The translations under genes were made by a program, and so were the position numbers. Shown here piece by piece: positions 1-6,539 of a DNA stretch of 7,205 nt (position 1 is the stretch's first letter; each line of letters opens with the position of its first letter). Under the pieces are notes generated by a model. The model saw only the letters and a list, made by a program, of their open reading frames with translations. It had not been told where the DNA came from and did not search any database. This DNA is from a virus (Duplodnaviria > Heunggongvirae > Uroviricota > Caudoviricetes). The stretch is from the IMG/VR virus record IMGVR_UViG_2541047121_000009; one strand, given 5' to 3'.

Positions 1-76
1 CGTATTGTTGGGCTGGAAATGGGCGCAGACGATTACGTCACCAAACCGCTGGAACTGCGCGAACTGGTAGTACGGG
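1..76 (+). pseudogene. torR: Internal fragment of an OmpR/PhoB-family response-regulator gene (end of receiver domain), probably torR, ending at a rearrangement junction near nt 76
   Basis: Frame 1 on the + strand reads RIVGLEMGADDYVTKPLELRELVVR. GADDYVTKP is the hallmark receiver-domain motif, and the unusual KPLELRELVV variant matches my recollection of E. coli TorR. The resemblance stops at about nt 76 (next expected residues VKNLLWR are absent). From memory, not searched. Confidence 0.5.
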
Positions 77-1154
77 ACAACTCCTTATCAATTGCCGTAT
101 TCAGTGTGTCGCGAATGTCGGTCAGTTCTTCCCACGTTGGCAGGTCAACCGTGTTTTTCACCGCCGGTGCATTGTTCAGTGCCGGATGCGTGACAGAAGG
201 CCAGCCGGTGCTCTGCGCGGGTGTTGTTGACTGCCCTACTGTGGCATTCTGCATCACCGCGGAAGTTGTGGGCGCAGGCAATCGTGTGACGGCATACGCC
301 GCTTCGCTGATTGCGGTCGTACGAAGGGTGCTGGCAACCACGTTACGCTGCTGCGTCGCCGTGGCGGTAGTTTTACTGTCCGTTTTCCAGACGCCGCGCG
401 GTTGCAGATCGCTGCCGAGGCTGACACCGGAAAGCGTTTTGATCATGGTGACCAGGTCGCTGGCGTTACCATAAAGGCGTTTCCCGGTACGCCACATTTT
501 CTGCACCTGCTCAACGAAATTTTTGCCTGACGATGGTGGCGGCAGAAGTACCGAGATATCCCCCTGCAACAGCCTGGCGGCATCCGATACGGCAGAATCC
601 ACCACTTTCATCGCATCAGAAACATACCCAAGCATTGTGCTGGCATTACCGACGACGTCGTTCTGCACAAAATCTGCCACGCCATCGATACTGAAACCAC
701 TGAAGCTGTCACTGATGCAGTCATCCAGTGCAGAACAGGATGACATCAGCGTCTGCGCCGTCGCCGCACCTGAAGTGGGGTAAGAGAGTTCTCCCGCTTC
801 GACAAACTTCAGGTCAAAGCGGACAATACGCCCTTCACTCTTCGATGTGCTGACCCGAACTTCCCCGTCAACACAGACTTTCAGCTCACCGTAAGTCGGA
901 TGGACAAGCGTGCCGGGACCGGGTTTATTCAGCGCGTCAATCAGGCGATCGCGCTGGTCAAAGCAGTCATCTCCCACCACATAAGCTGTGATGGACGGGC
1001 GGAAAGTGATTTTCCCCAGGTCTTCGGTATAGGGTTTGTCGCGGTTCGGGTATTCGTGCGTTTCCACACGACGACCGGTTCCCGCACTTTCTTCTTCAAC
1101 CTTAAACGGCACACCGCGAAATGACGCGTCCTGAAGTCTGTCTTTCCACGTCAT
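33..1154 (-). CDS. Mu N-like DNA circularization / tail protein (gp43-like), apparently C-terminally truncated and fused to about 14 codons read antisense through the torR-like fragment
   Basis: The minus-strand ORF has a conserved N-terminus (MTWKDRLQDASFRGVPF) resembling Mu N. ATG at 1154 is preceded by GGAG with 5-nt spacing, whereas the track start at 1196 has no SD and would place a terminator-like hairpin inside the coding region. The final residues SRTTSSRSSSGLVT are encoded by the reverse complement of the response-regulator fragment. About 373 aa is shorter than my recollection of Mu N (about 490 aa). Confidence 0.65.
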   Translation of the reverse strand: MTWKDRLQDASFRGVPFKVEEESAGTGRRVETHEYPNRDKPYTEDLGKITFRPSITAYVVGDDCFDQRDRLIDALNKPGPGTLVHPTYGELKVCVDGEVRVSTSKSEGRIVRFDLKFVEAGELSYPTSGAATAQTLMSSCSALDDCISDSFSGFSIDGVADFVQNDVVGNASTMLGYVSDAMKVVDSAVSDAARLLQGDISVLLPPPSSGKNFVEQVQKMWRTGKRLYGNASDLVTMIKTLSGVSLGSDLQPRGVWKTDSKTTATATQQRNVVASTLRTTAISEAAYAVTRLPAPTTSAVMQNATVGQSTTPAQSTGWPSVTHPALNNAPAVKNTVDLPTWEELTDIRDTLNTAIDKELSRTTSSRSSSGLVT

Positions 1155-1167
1155 ATAAACTCCGTAC

Positions 1168-1193
1168 ATAAAAAATCCCACCGGAGTGGGACT
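1168..1193 (-). terminator. Candidate rho-independent terminator or attenuator between the tape measure and N genes
   Basis: On the minus strand: TCCCAC-TCCG-GTGGGA (6-bp GC-rich stem, 4-nt loop; + strand 1176-1191) followed directly by TTTTTTAT. The + strand has no U-tract after the stem, so it is unidirectional. Confidence 0.4.
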
Positions 1194-1214
1194 CATTAAC
1201 AGATTAATTTTTCA

Positions 1215-3050
1215 TTACCTGCCAAAGCGCGTATAGCCAACATCATGGCTGACATCAAAACCGCTGGATCGCGTTTCCATAACCCGCATACCCGGAGGCG
1301 AATTCACAAAAGAGACCTTGATCTCACCATCAACTTTTGGCGCAGAAGCTTTGTTAATCATGAAGGGATTCGGGCCTGTGGCACCGGAGGCGTTGTTTGA
1401 CTGAGCCGGATCTACCGCCTGATAAGGTGTGTATCCCCGTGCCGGTATTCCCGTCCCATAAGCATCATAAGCACCCGCGCCCCACTGCGCAGAGTTAATG
1501 GCATCGACCGTGTCACCGGAACTGTCGGTAAACCACTCAATAATTGGCTTCAGTTTGTCCCACATATCCTGAAACCACTTAACAACCGGTCCCCAGTTAT
1601 TGATTACCATCCCCAGCGGCGACCAGGCAAAAACCTTCTTCAGAAGTTCCCAGCCAGCCTCAAAATAAGGACCAATGGTTTCCCAGAGCTTCTTGAAATA
1701 AGGTCCGACAACATCCCAGTTAGTGATAATTAATCCCGCAGCCAGGGCTATCGCCGTCGCAATCATTCCAATCGGCGTCATCGACATGATCCTGCTGACA
1801 ATACTGATGGCACCGCCAACGCCCATCAATCCCAGTTTCAGAATCGCAAGACCGGCAGCAAGCCCGACGACGCCGCGAATAACCCGGGGATTTTCATCCG
1901 CAAACTTCGTGAATTTTTCCCCTAACTCCCCCAGCCATTGCGTGATATTTTTGGCGTCACCAGAAAATGCGCCGCCAATAGCCGCAAGGCCGTTAGTTGC
2001 GGTCCCCGTCATTGCCTCCCACAGGTTGGACAGCGTACCAAGCTGGGCCTGAACACGTTTATTCAGGCTGGCCTGTTTATTCATCTTCTGCTGGATCTGA
2101 TCGTAGCCATCCTTTCCTTTATCGATTAGTGCATTGACCACCTGAAGGGTTTCGGCATCATCACCAAATATTGCCTTAAGTACACCTGTTCGCTTAACGT
2201 CGGTCAGTTTTCGCAGCTTTGCCAGTTGCCTGAACATGTTATCAAGACCGCCAAAACTTCCTTTGCCGTCAGTAAAATCGAGCTGTACCCCGAGTTTCTG
2301 GCGGGCCATGATTTTATTGACGTCCCTGATTTTCTTAACGCTTAATCCGGACTGGATAACTTTTCGCAGGGCGTTACCTGCCGACTCCCCGTTCATCCCC
2401 ATCTGATCCATCATGACGCTGATGGGGGCAAGGCTCTGTGCAGCCTGAAGACCGTCCTTGTTCACCATCTTCAGAACAGAGCTGGTTTTAGTGAAGAAGG
2501 ACAACATGTTGGTATCGTCAACACCCAGATAAAACGCCTTCTGGATAGTGTCGAACAGCCCCATCATGTCTTCTGACGCCGTTCCGGTAGCATCCTGCAT
2601 CTTTGCAGCAAACTCAGCAGCCGCTTCCGGTGTTTTTTTCAGTTGTACCGCAAGATAAGCTGTCGCTTTACCCACACCGCCAAGAATGTTTTCTGCCGGG
2701 ATCCCCTGACGCACCAGCATCTGCATCATGTTCTGGAAATCAGCCGTTGTACCGGGTAGCTGGTTACCCAGGCCAATAGCCAGTTTATTGATGTCCTGAA
2801 AGCTCTTTCCAACCTCGCCGTTCGCATCCATCATGGCGACTTTCAGCCCGGTGGCGGCGTTTTCCTGATCGGCATAAGATTTCAGGGAAAGCGTCAGACC
2901 CGCTGCCAGTCCGCCACCAAGCGCCAGCCCACCCTGTGACGCTTCTTCCGCCTGGCGTTTAAATCCCCGGATTTTCTTTTGCATTTTCGACAGCGCGGGA
3001 GAAAGCCTGTCGACACCGGTGATCAACGCCTTAAGCTCAAATTCCGCCAT
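1215..3050 (-). CDS. Phage tail tape measure protein (Mu Y / gp42-like), 611 aa
   Basis: Long ORF immediately downstream of the tube and chaperone genes. Gly/Ala-rich hydrophobic central segments (GVVGLAAGLAILKLGLMGVGG, IGMIATAIALAAGLII), 11-residue periodic Trp repeats near the C-terminus, and AGGAG upstream of the ATG. Gene order sheath-tube-chaperone-TMP-N matches Mu. Confidence 0.85.
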   Translation of the reverse strand: MAEFELKALITGVDRLSPALSKMQKKIRGFKRQAEEASQGGLALGGGLAAGLTLSLKSYADQENAATGLKVAMMDANGEVGKSFQDINKLAIGLGNQLPGTTADFQNMMQMLVRQGIPAENILGGVGKATAYLAVQLKKTPEAAAEFAAKMQDATGTASEDMMGLFDTIQKAFYLGVDDTNMLSFFTKTSSVLKMVNKDGLQAAQSLAPISVMMDQMGMNGESAGNALRKVIQSGLSVKKIRDVNKIMARQKLGVQLDFTDGKGSFGGLDNMFRQLAKLRKLTDVKRTGVLKAIFGDDAETLQVVNALIDKGKDGYDQIQQKMNKQASLNKRVQAQLGTLSNLWEAMTGTATNGLAAIGGAFSGDAKNITQWLGELGEKFTKFADENPRVIRGVVGLAAGLAILKLGLMGVGGAISIVSRIMSMTPIGMIATAIALAAGLIITNWDVVGPYFKKLWETIGPYFEAGWELLKKVFAWSPLGMVINNWGPVVKWFQDMWDKLKPIIEWFTDSSGDTVDAINSAQWGAGAYDAYGTGIPARGYTPYQAVDPAQSNNASGATGPNPFMINKASAPKVDGEIKVSFVNSPPGMRVMETRSSGFDVSHDVGYTRFGR

Positions 3051-3461
3051 GTGTGCGTTTCTCCTGCTCTATCCTGTTTGCCTGACTGACCAGCAAGGGA
3101 ATTTCACTGATCGGCATATTCAGCAATTCGAAAGGATTAATGCGCCAGTAGCTGGCGCAGTCAAAGAAGCGATCAGTGAGGTATTCAGCCGTCAGGCCTG
3201 GAGGAAAAAACCAGCCACAAGCCACGCCGCTGCATTCAGGTCTGCCGGAGACATCTGGTCGACAGAGCTTTGCGGCACTTTCGCCAGCCGCACAATGTAT
3301 TTCGACACCACATGCGCCAGAAGTCTGACTGACTCATCCTGATTCATCTGGTAGGGATACCCCAGCTCGCGGACATCCTTCCCGGTGGGTTCATCAAACT
3401 CCAGTACGGAGAGTGTCTCGCCATGAGCAGTAATCGGTTTCTTTAACTCAAGCTCTTTCAT
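3037..3461 (-). CDS. Tail assembly chaperone, long form made by programmed -1 frameshifting (gpGT analogue); predicted shift at 3204..3210
   Basis: The -1 frame is open from upstream of the slippery site to a stop at 3037-3039, which overlaps the tape measure start at 3050. After the shift the product reads ...AGFFPPGLTAEYLTDRFFDCASYWRINPFELLNMPISEIPLLVSQANRIEQEKRTHGGI. Confidence 0.6.
3192..3461 (-). CDS. Tail assembly chaperone, short form (Mu gp41 / lambda gpG analogue), 89 aa
   Basis: Small acidic protein encoded between the tube and tape measure genes. Its ATG overlaps the tube stop (ATGA-type coupling). Contains the slippery heptamer near its 3' end. Confidence 0.75.
   Translation of the reverse strand: MKELELKKPITAHGETLSVLEFDEPTGKDVRELGYPYQMNQDESVRLLAHVVSKYIVRLAKVPQSSVDQMSPADLNAAAWLVAGFFLQA
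3204..3210 (-). other. Slippery heptamer T_TTT_TTC for programmed -1 ribosomal frameshifting
   Basis: On the minus strand the zero frame reads GCT GGT TTT TTC CTC CAG GCC TGA. The X_XXY_YYZ heptamer T TTT TTC sits 3 codons before the short-form stop, and the -1 frame opens exactly here. Confidence 0.6.
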
Positions 3462-3817
3462 TACTGGTAATCCCCTTCTTCACCGTGGAACTCAAGATCA
3501 ACCGTGCCTTCTTCGGCATTATGGTTCGCTTCGCCGTGCAGCCAGGCAGACGACAGTACATAGACCTGACCGTTCGCCAGCTCGGCAGTGATGGTCATCT
3601 CATCAGACGAGGTGATTTTGCTTACCGGAAAATTCTTCGGCACCTTGAAGGTCCCTTTGACATAAGGCGCACGGTGAGTTTCCTTGCGGTCCACTGAACC
3701 GTCCAGGCCGATGATGTCATCGTTAACCGTTTTGTTCATGGGCACCTCAATGCCGCCGGTCAGCGATAGCTGCTGACCGTCAATTTTGAAATAACAGGTT
3801 CCCCCGATACGGGCCAT
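3461..3817 (-). CDS. Contractile tail tube protein (Mu M / gp40-like), 118 aa
   Basis: Size and position directly downstream of the sheath gene; its ATG overlaps the sheath stop (TAATG). Sequence (MARIGGTCYFKIDGQQLSLTGG...) resembles Mu-type tube proteins, from memory. Confidence 0.8.
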   Translation of the reverse strand: MARIGGTCYFKIDGQQLSLTGGIEVPMNKTVNDDIIGLDGSVDRKETHRAPYVKGTFKVPKNFPVSKITSSDEMTITAELANGQVYVLSSAWLHGEANHNAEEGTVDLEFHGEEGDYQ

Positions 3818-5313
3818 TATGCAGACTCCTCTGAATACTGAAGACGGAACTGATTAACCACGGCAAAGACACGCAGCTGGTTAACATAGTCAGGCGGGAA
3901 CAGCGTGTTCAGGCGGTTCGGATCGCTGGCATCACGCTCCACAACCAGGTACTGCTTAAACAGTTCGTAGTTTTCCACGATCCCCGCACGCTCAAGCTGA
4001 CGGTAGGTTGCCAGCAGTTCCCCTTTGATCACCGCCGGGGTGACAATCGCCTGACCGGGACCAAAGCGGGTACCGTCACTGGCAAGCTTGTGACGCCCGT
4101 ACTTACTGGTAATGACGGATTTCAGTTTGCGCAGTACATACGCGCTGGTATGCAGCGTCTCACTGTCGAGGTAACTGTTATCCGCAACCCCGTAAGCGTT
4201 TTTCCTGTACGTGGTGACATCACGCTGAATGCGTAGTACCCCGCTTTCGACATACGCCGTTGCCACGCCATGAGACAGCAGGGTCTGTTGTTCGGTCATC
4301 GTGAACCGTTTCCCCTTCGGCGCAGGCAGCATACCCACCAGCTCACCGGTCTGCGTGGGACGTGCCGGATCGTTGCGGATAAACACCGCTGCGCGGGCGG
4401 TACGGCTTGCCGCCAGCTCGTCGGCAGGCGTCTGGGTCTCTTTTTCGTACCCCGCCAGGGTAATGTGCTGCTGGTTAAACTGGTCACCTGCGGTCACCAG
4501 TTCTGACAGCGTGCCGATCTTTGCCGTATACACATGACCATACAGCTGACGCGCATAGCTCCAGCGACCGCTGGTATCGTTCATCTCGGTCACCAGCGTG
4601 TTAACGGAGGCCGTGTCGTTGAACGGCAGGCCGATATAATCAAACGGCTCATCCGCCATTGCAGCCACCGCGCCGGTGAGAACCGGAGCACCCGTTCCGG
4701 CGGTACCCGTCGCCACGGCAATCTGTACGCCCGCTGGCAGCACTTCGCCCCCACCAAAGCCGTAGTAATTGAGGCTGACAGGAATTTCATTCCCACAAAG
4801 CCCCTTATGACGCGCGGTCAGTGTGACCACGCCTGCCAAAGATGAAGCCGTAAACGGCAGGGTCGGAACGGCATTGATGGCATCCTGGATACTGCTGGCA
4901 ATCATCGTGACGTTATCGCCGTTAGTCACCGGTGCCTGCACGCGGGTACGTCCTACATACACATTCACCGTGCCGGTTTCGGTTGCCGCCCCGGTCACCG
5001 TCAGCGTAACTGTTGCCGCCGCACCTGTGGATTCAGGAACGGCAATCACATACAGCTCGCCAAACGGGTCAGTCTGGCGATAAGCCTCGACCATACGCGC
5101 CAGCTGACTTCCCGCACCACAAATCTGGCGTGCATAGTCTGCCGACGACATCAGTACCAGACTGTTGGCAACAATCTCTGCACCGTTATTGGCATGACCA
5201 ATCAGCAGCGATGCTCCGCTGTCCTGTGCAGTATTCGCCGCCTGGTTATCCATTTCCGCATAAAACAACGGAACCAGCGTATTCGACGGAATGGTGTTAA
5301 AGCTTATCGTCAT
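3817..5313 (-). CDS. Contractile tail sheath protein (Mu L / gp39-like), 498 aa
   Basis: N-terminus MTISFNTIPSNTLVPLFYAEMDN... resembles Mu/P2-type sheath proteins. About 500 aa, AAGGTG SD 8 nt upstream of the ATG, and immediately followed by the tube gene. Confidence 0.85.
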   Translation of the reverse strand: MTISFNTIPSNTLVPLFYAEMDNQAANTAQDSGASLLIGHANNGAEIVANSLVLMSSADYARQICGAGSQLARMVEAYRQTDPFGELYVIAVPESTGAAATVTLTVTGAATETGTVNVYVGRTRVQAPVTNGDNVTMIASSIQDAINAVPTLPFTASSLAGVVTLTARHKGLCGNEIPVSLNYYGFGGGEVLPAGVQIAVATGTAGTGAPVLTGAVAAMADEPFDYIGLPFNDTASVNTLVTEMNDTSGRWSYARQLYGHVYTAKIGTLSELVTAGDQFNQQHITLAGYEKETQTPADELAASRTARAAVFIRNDPARPTQTGELVGMLPAPKGKRFTMTEQQTLLSHGVATAYVESGVLRIQRDVTTYRKNAYGVADNSYLDSETLHTSAYVLRKLKSVITSKYGRHKLASDGTRFGPGQAIVTPAVIKGELLATYRQLERAGIVENYELFKQYLVVERDASDPNRLNTLFPPDYVNQLRVFAVVNQFRLQYSEESA

Positions 5314-6036: not shown

Positions 6037-6539
6037 CTGCGTCGTCGCTCAGGCTTCAGTGATTTACGTAATTCTCGCGCCAGAAAATAGCGTGTCCAGC
6101 TGCGGTTCTTTTCAAGCGTTTCCACCATAAAGTTATTACGTGGAGCCAGCCGCCAGCCGCTGCCACCGGATGCACCACGATGATGACTACGACGACGTTT
6201 TGCTCCTCCCCGGACACCAAAAAACAGAAACGCCGGATAGAAGTCACCAGAGATCATCCGGTTCCCCTTCCCGTTGCGCTGGTTAGGGGCAATGCGTGTC
6301 ATAAAACCGGCTCGCTTTTTACTGGCTCTCGGCACCATGTAACCAATCGAACGAGCCAGGCGTCCGGTCTGATAACCGGGGTTTTCACCCGGTGCCGACC
6401 GCGCACGGCGCATCACCAGCCGACGGGCATCACGCATATGACGCTGCCCAATCGTGACAAACGCCCGCCGGACACGGGCGCGGTTAAAGCGCATCTCGGC
6501 GGGCTGCTGAACATCAACGTGAAAAAAGGGAGTCGCCAT
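6033..6539 (-). CDS. Arg-rich phage virion morphogenesis / tail-completion-like protein, 168 aa
   Basis: Strong SD (GGAGG, 5 nt) before the ATG at 6539. Highly basic, ending in RRRR. Position in the neck gene block of a Mu-like late operon. Family assignment from memory is uncertain. Confidence 0.55.
   Translation of the reverse strand: MATPFFHVDVQQPAEMRFNRARVRRAFVTIGQRHMRDARRLVMRRARSAPGENPGYQTGRLARSIGYMVPRASKKRAGFMTRIAPNQRNGKGNRMISGDFYPAFLFFGVRGGAKRRRSHHRGASGGSGWRLAPRNNFMVETLEKNRSWTRYFLARELRKSLKPERRRR

What the first reader, a model, noticed from the sequence alone, without database searches (positions are those of the whole stretch)
3037..3461. Programmed -1 frameshift site (T_TTT_TTC) in the tail assembly chaperone gene
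The 89-aa chaperone ORF contains the classic slippery heptamer T TTT TTC three codons before its stop. The -1 frame is open from there to nt 3037, ending 14 nt inside the tape measure start. This reproduces the conserved G/GT-type arrangement between the tube and tape measure genes of long-tailed phages, and predicts a fusion of about 140 aa. The track's separate 62-aa ORF (3037..3225) is better explained as this frameshift extension than as an independent gene.
Basis: partly seen in the sequence, partly recalled or inferred. Interest (0 to 1): 0.5.

Follow-up and report, generated by a model that had tools for sequence, protein, structure and literature searches.

The report
Tail chaperone frameshift site, unannotated
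An SfV-type prophage of E. coli/Shigella carries the usual "slippery" ribosomal frameshift site that lets its tail-assembly chaperone gene make a short and a long protein; the mechanism is ordinary and well known, but databases do not annotate the long product here.

Summary
On the minus strand, the 89-aa chaperone ORF (3461..3192, Pfam PF10109) carries an in-phase T_TTT_TTC heptamer at 3210..3204, three codons before its stop. The -1 frame is open to a TGA at 3039..3037, 14 nt inside the tape-measure gene. The predicted fusion is 141 aa.

Comparative evidence is strong. All 32 related loci examined, down to about 28-36% chaperone identity, keep an in-phase T_TTT_TTY at the same position. All encode a conserved 50-59-aa peptide in the -1 frame. 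Substitutions there follow the coding pattern for that frame only. Twenty of the 32 loci have no start codon that could begin the extension independently.

No conserved stimulatory RNA structure or upstream Shine-Dalgarno-like element was found.

The window is an SfV-like prophage with a Mu-like tail module. Its recoding geometry matches phage P2 E/E+E' (a -1 slip on U6N, with the fusion stop overlapping the tape-measure ATG). It does not match Mu itself, which uses a -2 shift.

This is a new, unannotated member of a well-known kind. No phage or RefSeq record seen annotates the fusion. Expression of the fusion protein is inferred, not shown. Interest is low.

The parts
3461..3817 (-). Tail tube gene (118 aa), immediately upstream. 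Its stop overlaps the chaperone ATG.
   Evidence: PF10618 Tail_tube, E 3e-33. Annotated as a tail tube protein in SfV and by PGAP.
3192..3461 (-). Zero-frame tail assembly chaperone ORF (89 aa), the counterpart of lambda gpG and P2 gpE.
   Evidence: PF10109 Phage_TAC_7, E 1.9e-16. AlphaFold2 model has mean pLDDT 83; its best viral fold matches are tape-measure and tail assembly chaperones with TM-score about 0.7.
3204..3210 (-). Slippery heptamer T_TTT_TTC, in X_XXY_YYZ phase. It encodes the invariant Phe85-Phe86.
   Evidence: An in-phase T_TTT_TTY was found at chaperone nucleotide 242-260 in 32 of 32 related loci.
3037..3204 (-). -1-frame extension: 55 codons plus TGA. It is the counterpart of lambda T and P2 E'. 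The predicted fusion CDS is join(3461..3204, 3204..3037), 141 aa.
   Evidence: Conserved as a peptide in relatives (alignment A3). The codon-position substitution pattern fits the -1 frame only. Matches phrog_32181, E 5e-40.
3223..3225 (-). GTG that begins the mechanically listed 62-aa ORF. Judged not to be a real start.
   Evidence: No Shine-Dalgarno-like motif upstream. Twenty of 32 related loci have no ATG, GTG or TTG in the -1 frame between the last upstream -1-frame stop and the heptamer.
3061..3065 (-). AGGAG Shine-Dalgarno sequence of the tape-measure gene, 10 nt before its ATG. It lies inside the coding sequence of the extension.
   Evidence: Read directly from the sequence. Not predicted to be sequestered in RNA structure.
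1215..3050 (-). Tape measure gene (611 aa). Its first 14 nt overlap the end of the extension.
   Evidence: PF10145, E 1e-26. The overlap is 8 nt (ATGGCTGA) in SfV and most relatives. It is 14 nt here because GCT>GCG in codon 2 removes the TGA.
3141..3159 (-). Eight-base-pair hairpin UGCGCCAG-CUA-CUGGCGCA, 44 nt downstream of the heptamer. A side observation; probably not a frameshift stimulator.
   Evidence: It is the only consensus structure RNAalifold finds, with no covariation. Synonymous variation is reduced at its six codons. It is absent in the ST64B/phiP27 branch.

Best explanation
This is a programmed -1 ribosomal frameshift of the lambda G/GT and P2 E/E+E' type, in the tail assembly chaperone gene of an SfV-like prophage.

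Proposed mechanism:
- Most ribosomes read the chaperone ORF to its stop and make the 89-aa chaperone.
- A minority slip back one base when the two tRNA-Phe occupy UUU (P site) and UUC (A site) of U_UUU_UUC. Both can re-pair on UUU.
- Those ribosomes continue in the -1 frame for 55 codons. They terminate on a stop that overlaps the tape-measure start codon.
- The result is a 141-aa fusion (...AGFF-PPGLTAEY...).

By analogy with lambda, the shared N-terminal part would coat the tape-measure protein. The C-terminal extension would recruit the tube protein so that the tail polymerises to the correct length. Neither protein would end up in the virion.

Shown here: the sequence anatomy, the conservation of site and frame, and the family assignment of the N-terminal domain.

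Inferred: that slippage occurs, its efficiency, and the roles of the two products.
For: 1. Gene order is sheath, tube, chaperone, tape measure, DNA-circularisation protein, each with a strong Pfam hit.

2. The T_TTT_TTC heptamer is in phase, three codons before the stop. The -1 frame is open through to the tape-measure start.

3. All 32 related loci carry an in-phase T_TTT_TTC or T_TTT_TTT at the same position. These are 6 phages and 25 genomes plus the window. They span Enterobacterales, Derxia and a Methylococcales MAG, with chaperone identity from 100% down to about 28-36%. Flanking synonymous sites vary freely.

4. The zero-frame tail after the site varies from 3 to 21 codons with no conservation. 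The -1 peptide is 50-59 aa and conserved, with an invariant A..P..A.R pattern and a near-invariant Trp.

5. In the gap region (10 unique sequences, 138 nt, 75% nucleotide identity):
- Variable columns at codon positions 1/2/3 of the -1 frame are 24/13/38.
- Amino-acid identity is 77% in the -1 frame, against 52-53% in the other two frames.
- The -1 frame has no stops; the other frames have 1-6 per sequence.

6. Twenty of 32 loci have no possible start codon in the -1 frame upstream of the heptamer. In L102 a -1-frame stop lies only 7 codons upstream. The frame change is therefore bracketed to about 10 codons around the heptamer.

7. P2 E/E+E' is a recognised -1 frameshift annotated in RefSeq (cited in PMC3091744). 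It has T_TTT_TTG in phase at nucleotide 248, products of 91 and 142 aa, and an 8-nt overlap with the tape-measure start. This is the same geometry. P2 E+E' aligns end to end with this family and shares every invariant residue of the extension.

8. In E. coli, H_HH.U_UU.Y heptamers are among the most shift-prone. UUUUUUC gave 0.12% frameshifting without a stimulator and 7.6% with one (PMC4066793, text and supplement).
Against: - There is no direct evidence of the fusion protein.
- No conserved stimulatory element was found. An upstream Shine-Dalgarno-like motif occurs in only 3 of 26 unique sequences. The only conserved hairpin starts 44 nt downstream, too far to act as a canonical stimulator, and shows no covariation.
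- In a reporter, bare UUUUUUC shifted at only about 0.1% (PMC4066793 supplement), so efficiency may be low.
- The extension has no Pfam match. In particular it does not hit PF06528 (P2 GpE), my recollection of the accession for the P2 E' extension family; the library scan returned no such hit. Its profile similarity to P2 E' and to the Mu extension is weak: hhalign P of 1e-3 and 2e-4, and top-ranked six-frame hits with E of only 0.1-0.2.
- Five IMG/VR contigs carry GGT>GGG variants that destroy the in-phase heptamer yet keep the -1 ORF intact.
- No natural single-frame fusion of the two parts was found. The three 'full-length' database proteins come from contigs whose reading frames are broken by indels, one assembled at only 2.4x coverage.
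Confidence: 0.88

Rival explanations
1. The same fusion protein is made by transcriptional slippage. RNA polymerase would add one extra U at the U6 run (U7 in some relatives), and normal translation of that mRNA would then read into the -1 frame.
For: - A one-U insertion gives exactly the same protein (GGU UUU UUU CCU... = G F F P P G L), so the anatomy cannot separate the two mechanisms. This follows directly from the sequence.
- The ST64B/phiP27/YeP1 branch has T7 runs.
- One variant, L031, keeps a T6 run but shifted out of the ribosomal phase (GGG TTT TTT CTC).
- Homopolymeric A7/U7 runs are avoided in E. coli genes, partly because of transcriptional slippage (PMC4066793).
Against: - From my own knowledge, efficient RNA-polymerase slippage in E. 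coli generally needs runs of about 8-9 or more. I did not check this in a paper here. The run in this window is exactly 6, flanked by G and C.
- The homologous lambda and P2 sites are treated in the literature as ribosomal frameshifts (PMC5009743, PMC3091744).
- In all 32 loci the run is in the X_XXY_YYZ phase and ends in Y. This fits tRNA-Phe re-pairing. However, it also follows from the conserved Phe-Phe, so it is weak discrimination.
Confidence: 0.07
2. The 62-aa ORF (3225..3037) is an independent small gene. It would be translated from its own GTG, or by re-initiation after the chaperone stop.
For: - A GTG exists at 3225..3223.
- One RAST-type phage record calls a 60-aa hypothetical protein here.
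- PHROGs has a family built from such calls (phrog_32181).
- A few small ORFs of 53-70 aa from this family exist among 1.84 billion representative proteins.
Against: - There is no Shine-Dalgarno-like motif before the GTG.
- Twenty of 32 relatives have no ATG, GTG or TTG in the -1 frame upstream of the heptamer. In several, the -1 frame is closed by a stop only 7-12 codons upstream.
- The only internal ATG (codon 30 of the extension) is not conserved. It would also skip the most conserved segment, FDCASYWRINPFE.
- Conservation of the -1 peptide begins right at the heptamer.
Confidence: 0.03
3. The heptamer and the open -1 frame are fortuitous, and no second product is made.
For: - TTTTTTC is not over-represented in the window: 3 copies against 1.33 expected.
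- No stimulator was found.
- Rare variants lack the canonical heptamer.
Against: - Site, phase and -1-frame peptide are conserved across 32 loci down to about 30% identity.
- The substitution pattern is a coding one specific to the -1 frame.
- The arrangement is the same as in the recognised P2 and lambda systems.
Confidence: 0.02

Closest known systems
Phage P2 E / E+E' programmed -1 frameshift (Christie et al. 2002; Xu, Hendrix & Duda 2004; as cited in PMC3091744)
   Same: - The N-terminal domain belongs to the same Pfam family, PF10109 ('E, or 41 or 14').
- Both belong to contractile-tailed phages.
- The U6N heptamer is in the same phase and at the same place: nucleotide 248 in P2, 251 here.
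- Product sizes are 91/142 aa in P2 and 89/141 aa here.
- The fusion stop overlaps the tape-measure ATG.
- No stimulatory structure is reported for P2 (PMC3091744), and none was found here.
- Supporting calls: 3, 38, 39, 80.
   Different: - The last base of the heptamer is C (or T in relatives), not G. The A-site codon is therefore Phe UUC rather than Leu UUG.
- The extension is not recognised by any Pfam model and is only weakly similar to E' (hhalign P 1e-3).
- The surrounding tail module is Mu-like, not P2-like.
- The chaperones are only about 19% identical.
Phage lambda G / GT frameshift (Levin, Hendrix & Casjens 1993; Xu et al. 2013, 2014; summarised in PMC5009743)
   Same: - The position is the same, between the major tail/tube gene and the tape-measure gene.
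[quoted passage not shown]
- The stop of the extension overlaps the tape-measure ATG by 8 nt. The sequence is literally ATGGCTGA in both lambda and SfV.
- The functional model proposed here is taken from lambda.
   Different: - Lambda is a siphovirus.
- From my own recollection (not checked here), its heptamer is G_GGA_AAG.
- Its proteins belong to a different family.
- In the window the overlap is 14 nt.
Phage Mu gp41 frameshift
   Same: - The tail module is syntenic: gp38/DUF2635, sheath L, tube M, chaperone, tape measure, DNA-circularisation protein N.
- Mu gp41 is named in the PF10109 family title.
- The Mu extension shows weak profile similarity to the extension here.
   Different: - Mu is reported to use a -2 shift (PMC5009743, PMC2628397). 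Its extension lies in the +1 frame, downstream of a G-rich run, GGGGGCGA.
- In the window the +1 frame is closed by stops.
- The Mu chaperone ORF is 144 aa, against 89 aa here.

Membership tests
Tailed-phage G/GT-type tail assembly chaperone frameshift (Xu, Hendrix & Duda 2004) | Two overlapping ORFs lie between the major tail/tube gene and the tape-measure gene. | tested here: met
   Tube 3817..3461, chaperone 3461..3192, -1 ORF ending at 3037, tape measure starting at 3050.
Tailed-phage G/GT-type tail assembly chaperone frameshift (Xu, Hendrix & Duda 2004) | [quoted passage not shown] | tested here: met
   T_TTT_TTC at 3210..3204, phase X_XXY_YYZ, three codons before the stop.
Tailed-phage G/GT-type tail assembly chaperone frameshift (Xu, Hendrix & Duda 2004) | The slippery site and the shifted-frame coding sequence are conserved in relatives. 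| tested here: met
   Conserved in 32 of 32 loci. The codon-position pattern and amino-acid identity favour the -1 frame only. The exception is 5 rare variants among more than 120 near-identical contigs.
Tailed-phage G/GT-type tail assembly chaperone frameshift (Xu, Hendrix & Duda 2004) | Both the short and the fused protein are actually made, at a set ratio, and are required for tail assembly. | not testable with these tools
   This needs a reporter assay, mass spectrometry or western blot of induced lysates, and mutants of the heptamer.
PF10109 Phage_TAC_7 (P2 gpE, Mu gp41, gp14) | The sequence matches the family profile above its gathering threshold. | tested here: met
   60.3 bits against a cut-off of 25, E 1.9e-16, covering residues 4-86. 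The fold model matches viral tape-measure and tail assembly chaperones at TM-score about 0.7.
P2 E+E' type fusion | The extension belongs to the P2 GpE (E') family (PF06528 by my recollection of the accession). | tested here: not met
   No Pfam hit for the extension or for any of 18 family members. Similarity is only weak: hhalign P 1.2e-3, plus shared invariant A..P..A.R residues. Distant homology is plausible but not established.
P2 E+E' type fusion | A -1 shift occurs on a U6N heptamer about 83 codons into the chaperone, and the fusion stop overlaps the tape-measure ATG. | tested here: met
   P2 has TTTTTTG at nucleotide 248 with an 8-nt overlap. The window has TTTTTTC at nucleotide 251 with a 14-nt overlap (8 nt in SfV and most relatives).
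Mu gp41 type (-2 frameshift) | The extension is encoded in the +1 frame and is reached by a -2 slip on a G-rich site. | tested here: not met
   The +1 frame of the window has stops throughout the gap, and the extension is in the -1 frame. The Mu extension is in the +1 frame after GGGGGCGA (PMC5009743).

The most novel reading that the evidence does not exclude
The 141-nt stretch translated only by frameshifted ribosomes may double as a control region for tape-measure synthesis.

What prompts the idea:
- Frameshifted ribosomes terminate exactly on the tape-measure start. The ATGnnTGA overlap is shared by lambda, P2, SfV and ST64B.
- On the way they must melt a hairpin (3159..3141) whose six codons show almost no synonymous change.

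On this reading, the frameshift rate would tie the supply of tape measure, or co-translational loading of the fusion onto nascent tape measure, to the supply of the long chaperone.

A related unexcluded reading is that the U6/U7 run acts through transcriptional rather than ribosomal slippage.
Probability: 0.1. Interest if true: 0.45.

Novelty: new member of a known kind. Interest (0 to 1): 0.2.

Why it matters
The main value is for annotation.

- The region occurs in about 1,085 of 5,426 complete E. coli genomes. It also occurs in the reference genomes of the Shigella serotype-converting phages SfV, SfI and SfII.
- None of the records examined annotates the fusion. PGAP and RefSeq leave a 141-nt "intergenic" gap. 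One pipeline calls a hypothetical 60-aa protein, and PHROGs lists the extension as "unknown function".
- Recognising the frameshift assigns a function to that orphan ORF family.
- It also shows that a Mu-like tail module can carry a P2-style -1 site rather than Mu's own -2 site. This is a small illustration that what is conserved is the recoding outcome, not the exact mechanism.
- It does not open a new question.

Tried and rejected
1. Stimulatory RNA structure.
- The 54 nt after the heptamer fold no better than shuffled sequence (z +0.67).
- The 104-nt fold is significant in the window (z -3.7). However, its long-range stem is not conserved.
- RNAalifold keeps only a hairpin 44 nt downstream, with no covariation.
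- The 184-nt fold that includes the tape-measure ribosome-binding site is not significant (z -1.6).

2. Upstream Shine-Dalgarno-like stimulator: present in only 3 of 26 unique sequences.

3. Rfam: no family matched. The only hit was a chance CRISPR-repeat match at E 0.86.

4. Natural single-frame fusions as support.
- The three full-length hits (P0001-P0003) have reading frames broken by indels at different places. They are assembly or sequencing errors, one at 2.4x coverage.
- None was found among 1.84 billion representative proteins.

5. PDB.
- The sequence search gave only spurious light-harvesting-protein repeats. The same artefact appeared.
- Foldseek against the PDB gave nothing significant.

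Only the N-terminal domain was modelled.

7. A scan of viral contigs with P2 E+E', meant to build a diverse E' profile, returned only near-identical P2 copies. The homology test therefore rests on single sequences.

8. Papers I could not read: Xu et al. 2004, Christie et al. 2002, Allison et al. 2002. I therefore cannot say whether SfV was listed in the 2004 survey. The SfI and SfIV genome papers do not mention a frameshift.

9. Sharma et al. 2014 list five prophage clusters with conserved heptamers in E. coli. This one is not among them.
Full report
**What the window is**

All genes lie on the minus strand, in this order:
- head-completion protein
- tail terminator
- tail sheath (5313..3817; PF04984, PF17482, PF17481)
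- tail tube (3817..3461; PF10618)
- an 89-aa tail assembly chaperone (3461..3192; PF10109 "E, or 41 or 14", E 1.9e-16)
- tape measure (3050..1215; PF10145)
- DNA-circularisation protein (1196..33; PF07157)

The 1-kb core is 98.6% identical to Shigella phage SfV. It is 100% identical to a prophage in E. coli strain 7784. Similar DNA occurs in 1,085 of 5,426 complete E. coli genomes. So this is an SfV-type prophage whose tail module is Mu-like.

**Checking the observation**

The chaperone ORF ends ...GCT GGT TTT TTC CTC CAG GCC TGA.
- TTTTTTC is at 3210..3204. Its first T is the third base of the Gly codon, which is the correct X_XXY_YYZ phase.
- Three sense codons follow before the TGA at 3194..3192.
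- Re-reading the C at 3204 in the -1 frame gives PPGLTAEYLTDRFFDCASYWRINPFELLNMPISEIPLLVSQANRIEQEKRTHGGI and a TGA at 3039..3037.
- The tape-measure ATG is at 3050..3048, so the overlap is 14 nt.
- The fusion is 141 aa.

The heptamer by itself is not surprising: the window has 3 copies against 1.33 expected. The case therefore rests on comparison with relatives.

**Comparative evidence**

I compared 32 loci:
- six diverged phages: EPP-1, AH07, SfIV, phiP27, ST64B and YeP1
- 25 loci from species-representative genomes, ranging from Shigella and Edwardsiella (99-100% chaperone identity) to Derxia and a Methylococcales MAG (37-40%)
- the window itself

The results were as follows.
- All 32 loci have an in-phase T_TTT_TTC or T_TTT_TTT at nucleotide 242-260 of the chaperone gene. 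It encodes an invariant Phe-Phe. Neighbouring synonymous positions vary freely.
- After the site, the zero-frame tail runs 3 to 21 codons and is not conserved.
- The -1 frame gives a 50-59-aa peptide with a conserved core, roughly (F/Y)(D/N)xA.(Y/F)W(R/K)(I/L)NP(L/F)E...A.RI.
- In 26 of the 32 loci the -1 stop overlaps the tape-measure ATG by 8 nt (ATGGCTGA in most of them).
- In the window, a change that is synonymous for the tape measure (GCT>GCG in codon 2) removes that TGA. It adds Gly-Ile to the extension.

**Which frame is coding in the gap**

I took the stretch that lies after the zero-frame stop and before the tape-measure overlap. It has 10 unique sequences, 138 nt, at 75% mean nucleotide identity.
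- Variable columns fall 24/13/38 on codon positions 1/2/3 of the -1 frame.
- Mean amino-acid identity is 77% in that frame, against 52-53% in the other two.
- The -1 frame has no stops. The other frames have 1-6 per sequence.

**Independent initiation is unlikely**
- The GTG at 3225 has no Shine-Dalgarno-like motif.
- Twenty of 32 loci have no ATG, GTG or TTG in the -1 frame between the last upstream stop and the heptamer.
- In L102 the -1 frame is closed only 7 codons upstream.
- Together with the zero-frame stop 3 codons downstream in the SfV type, this brackets the frame change to about 10 codons around the heptamer.

**Stimulators**

None is conserved.
- The first 54 nt after the site fold no better than shuffled sequence.
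- The window's 104-nt fold is significant (z -3.7), but its long stem is not shared by relatives.
- The only consensus element is an 8-bp hairpin at 3159..3141. It starts 44 nt downstream and shows no covariation.
- Upstream Shine-Dalgarno-like motifs are rare.
- Rfam finds nothing.

This matches what is reported for P2-like phages, where no hairpin follows the site (PMC3091744). Efficiency is unknown. In an E. coli reporter, UUUUUUC shifted at 0.12% alone and 7.6% with a strong pseudoknot. UUUUUUG, the P2 heptamer, gave 0.12% and 0.77% (PMC4066793 supplement). P2-type sites are nevertheless described as 2-3 times more efficient than lambda's (PMC5009743). Context clearly matters.

**Comparison with known systems**

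- P2 is annotated with E (91 aa), E+E' (142 aa) and a "-1 translational frameshift" at T_TTT_TTG. That heptamer sits in phase at nucleotide 248. The fusion stop overlaps the gene T start by 8 nt. This is the same geometry as here.
- P2 E+E' aligns end to end with the family. It shares all the invariant residues of the extension.
- Formal similarity of the extensions is weak. hhalign gives P 1.2e-3 against P2 E' and 1.8e-4 against the Mu extension. Both are the top six-frame hits in their loci, but only at E 0.1-0.2.
- No Pfam model recognises the extension. PHROGs knows it only as phrog_32181, "unknown function".
- Mu has the syntenic tail module but is reported to use a -2 shift (PMC5009743, PMC2628397). 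Its extension is in the +1 frame after a GGGGGCGA run. In the window that frame is closed.
- Lambda T/H shows the same 8-nt ATGGCTGA overlap.
- The AlphaFold2 model of the N-terminal domain has mean pLDDT 83. It matches viral "tape measure chaperone" and "tail assembly chaperone" models at TM-score about 0.7. It has no solved-structure relative.

**Caveats**
- Expression of the fusion is inferred, not shown.
- Transcriptional slippage at the U6/U7 run would give the identical protein and cannot be excluded from sequence. I rate it about 7%.
- Among 80 near-identical viral contigs, 3 lacked the canonical heptamer. They read GGG TTT TTC or GGG TTT TTT CTC and are synonymous for the chaperone. 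They keep the -1 ORF intact.
These may be decaying prophages or tolerated weaker sites.
- Apparent full-length fusions in protein databases come from contigs whose reading frames are broken by indels.

**Annotation status and novelty**
- None of the 10 phage records that contain the extension annotates a joined CDS.
- The PGAP annotation of the one RefSeq E. coli genome inspected, strain 7784, does not annotate it either.
- The SfI and SfIV genome papers do not mention a frameshift.
- I could not read Xu et al. 2004 to see whether SfV was in their survey.

The mechanism and its role are textbook.

Noticed in passing
window 3141..3159 (- strand): Hairpin UGCGCCAG-CUA-CUGGCGCA inside the extension, at codons C-A-S-Y-W-R. 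These six codons show almost no synonymous change in 15 relatives (TGC 15/15, GCC 13/15, TAC 13/13, CGC 12/14). Neighbouring codons vary freely. There are no compensatory changes, and the hairpin is absent in the ST64B/phiP27 branch. It is too far from the slip site (44 nt) to be a classical stimulator. Its role, if any, is unknown.
   Followed up: partly
window 3037..3050; L326 1543-1550 (lambda); L117 1851-1858 (P2); L001 2351-2358 (SfV): The stop of the frameshift extension overlaps the tape-measure ATG by 8 nt (ATGnnTGA/TAA) in lambda, P2, SfV, ST64B and most relatives. The sequence is literally ATGGCTGA in lambda and SfV. The window has 14 nt because a GCT>GCG change in tape-measure codon 2 removes the TGA. 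This could reflect translational coupling. The tape measure also has its own AGGAG at 3065..3061, which is not predicted to be sequestered.
   Followed up: partly
L031, L062, L068 around 1440-1460; L201-L205: Rare natural variants of the same prophage carry GGT>GGG before the T-run (G_TTT_TTC), or a T6 run shifted by one base (GGG TTT TTT CTC). These break the in-phase heptamer. The chaperone protein is unchanged and the -1 ORF stays intact. Five contigs in IMG/VR carry them, against at least 120 canonical ones.
   Followed up: partly
one of loci L011-L090 (not identified individually): In one of the 80 near-identical viral contigs, the -1 extension runs on for 403 codons into unrelated sequence after ...RINPFELLN. 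This suggests a recombination or insertion junction inside the extension region of that prophage.
   Followed up: no
window 3150..3204 (- strand), extension residues 1-18: The peptide PPGLTAEYLTDRFFDCAS gives multi-repeat weak hits to eukaryotic light-harvesting (LHCI) proteins, which carry the motif LTGEY..DRGFDP. Summing over repeats produces deceptively low whole-sequence E-values (2e-10; 2e-3). Each single stretch is insignificant. This is a chance motif resemblance.
   Followed up: yes
window 6521..6527 (- strand): A second TTTTTTC on the coding strand lies near the end of the head-closure gene, where it overlaps the next ORF. My hand reading of the codons around the published translation ...DSLFSR* puts it out of the X_XXY_YYZ phase, so it is probably not a frameshift candidate. 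This phase was not computed.
   Followed up: partly
window 33..1196 (- strand): The mechanically listed DNA-circularisation ORF (387 aa) starts from an internal ATG. PGAP annotates a 442-aa protein at the equivalent place in E. coli 7784, so the true start is probably further upstream.
   Followed up: no
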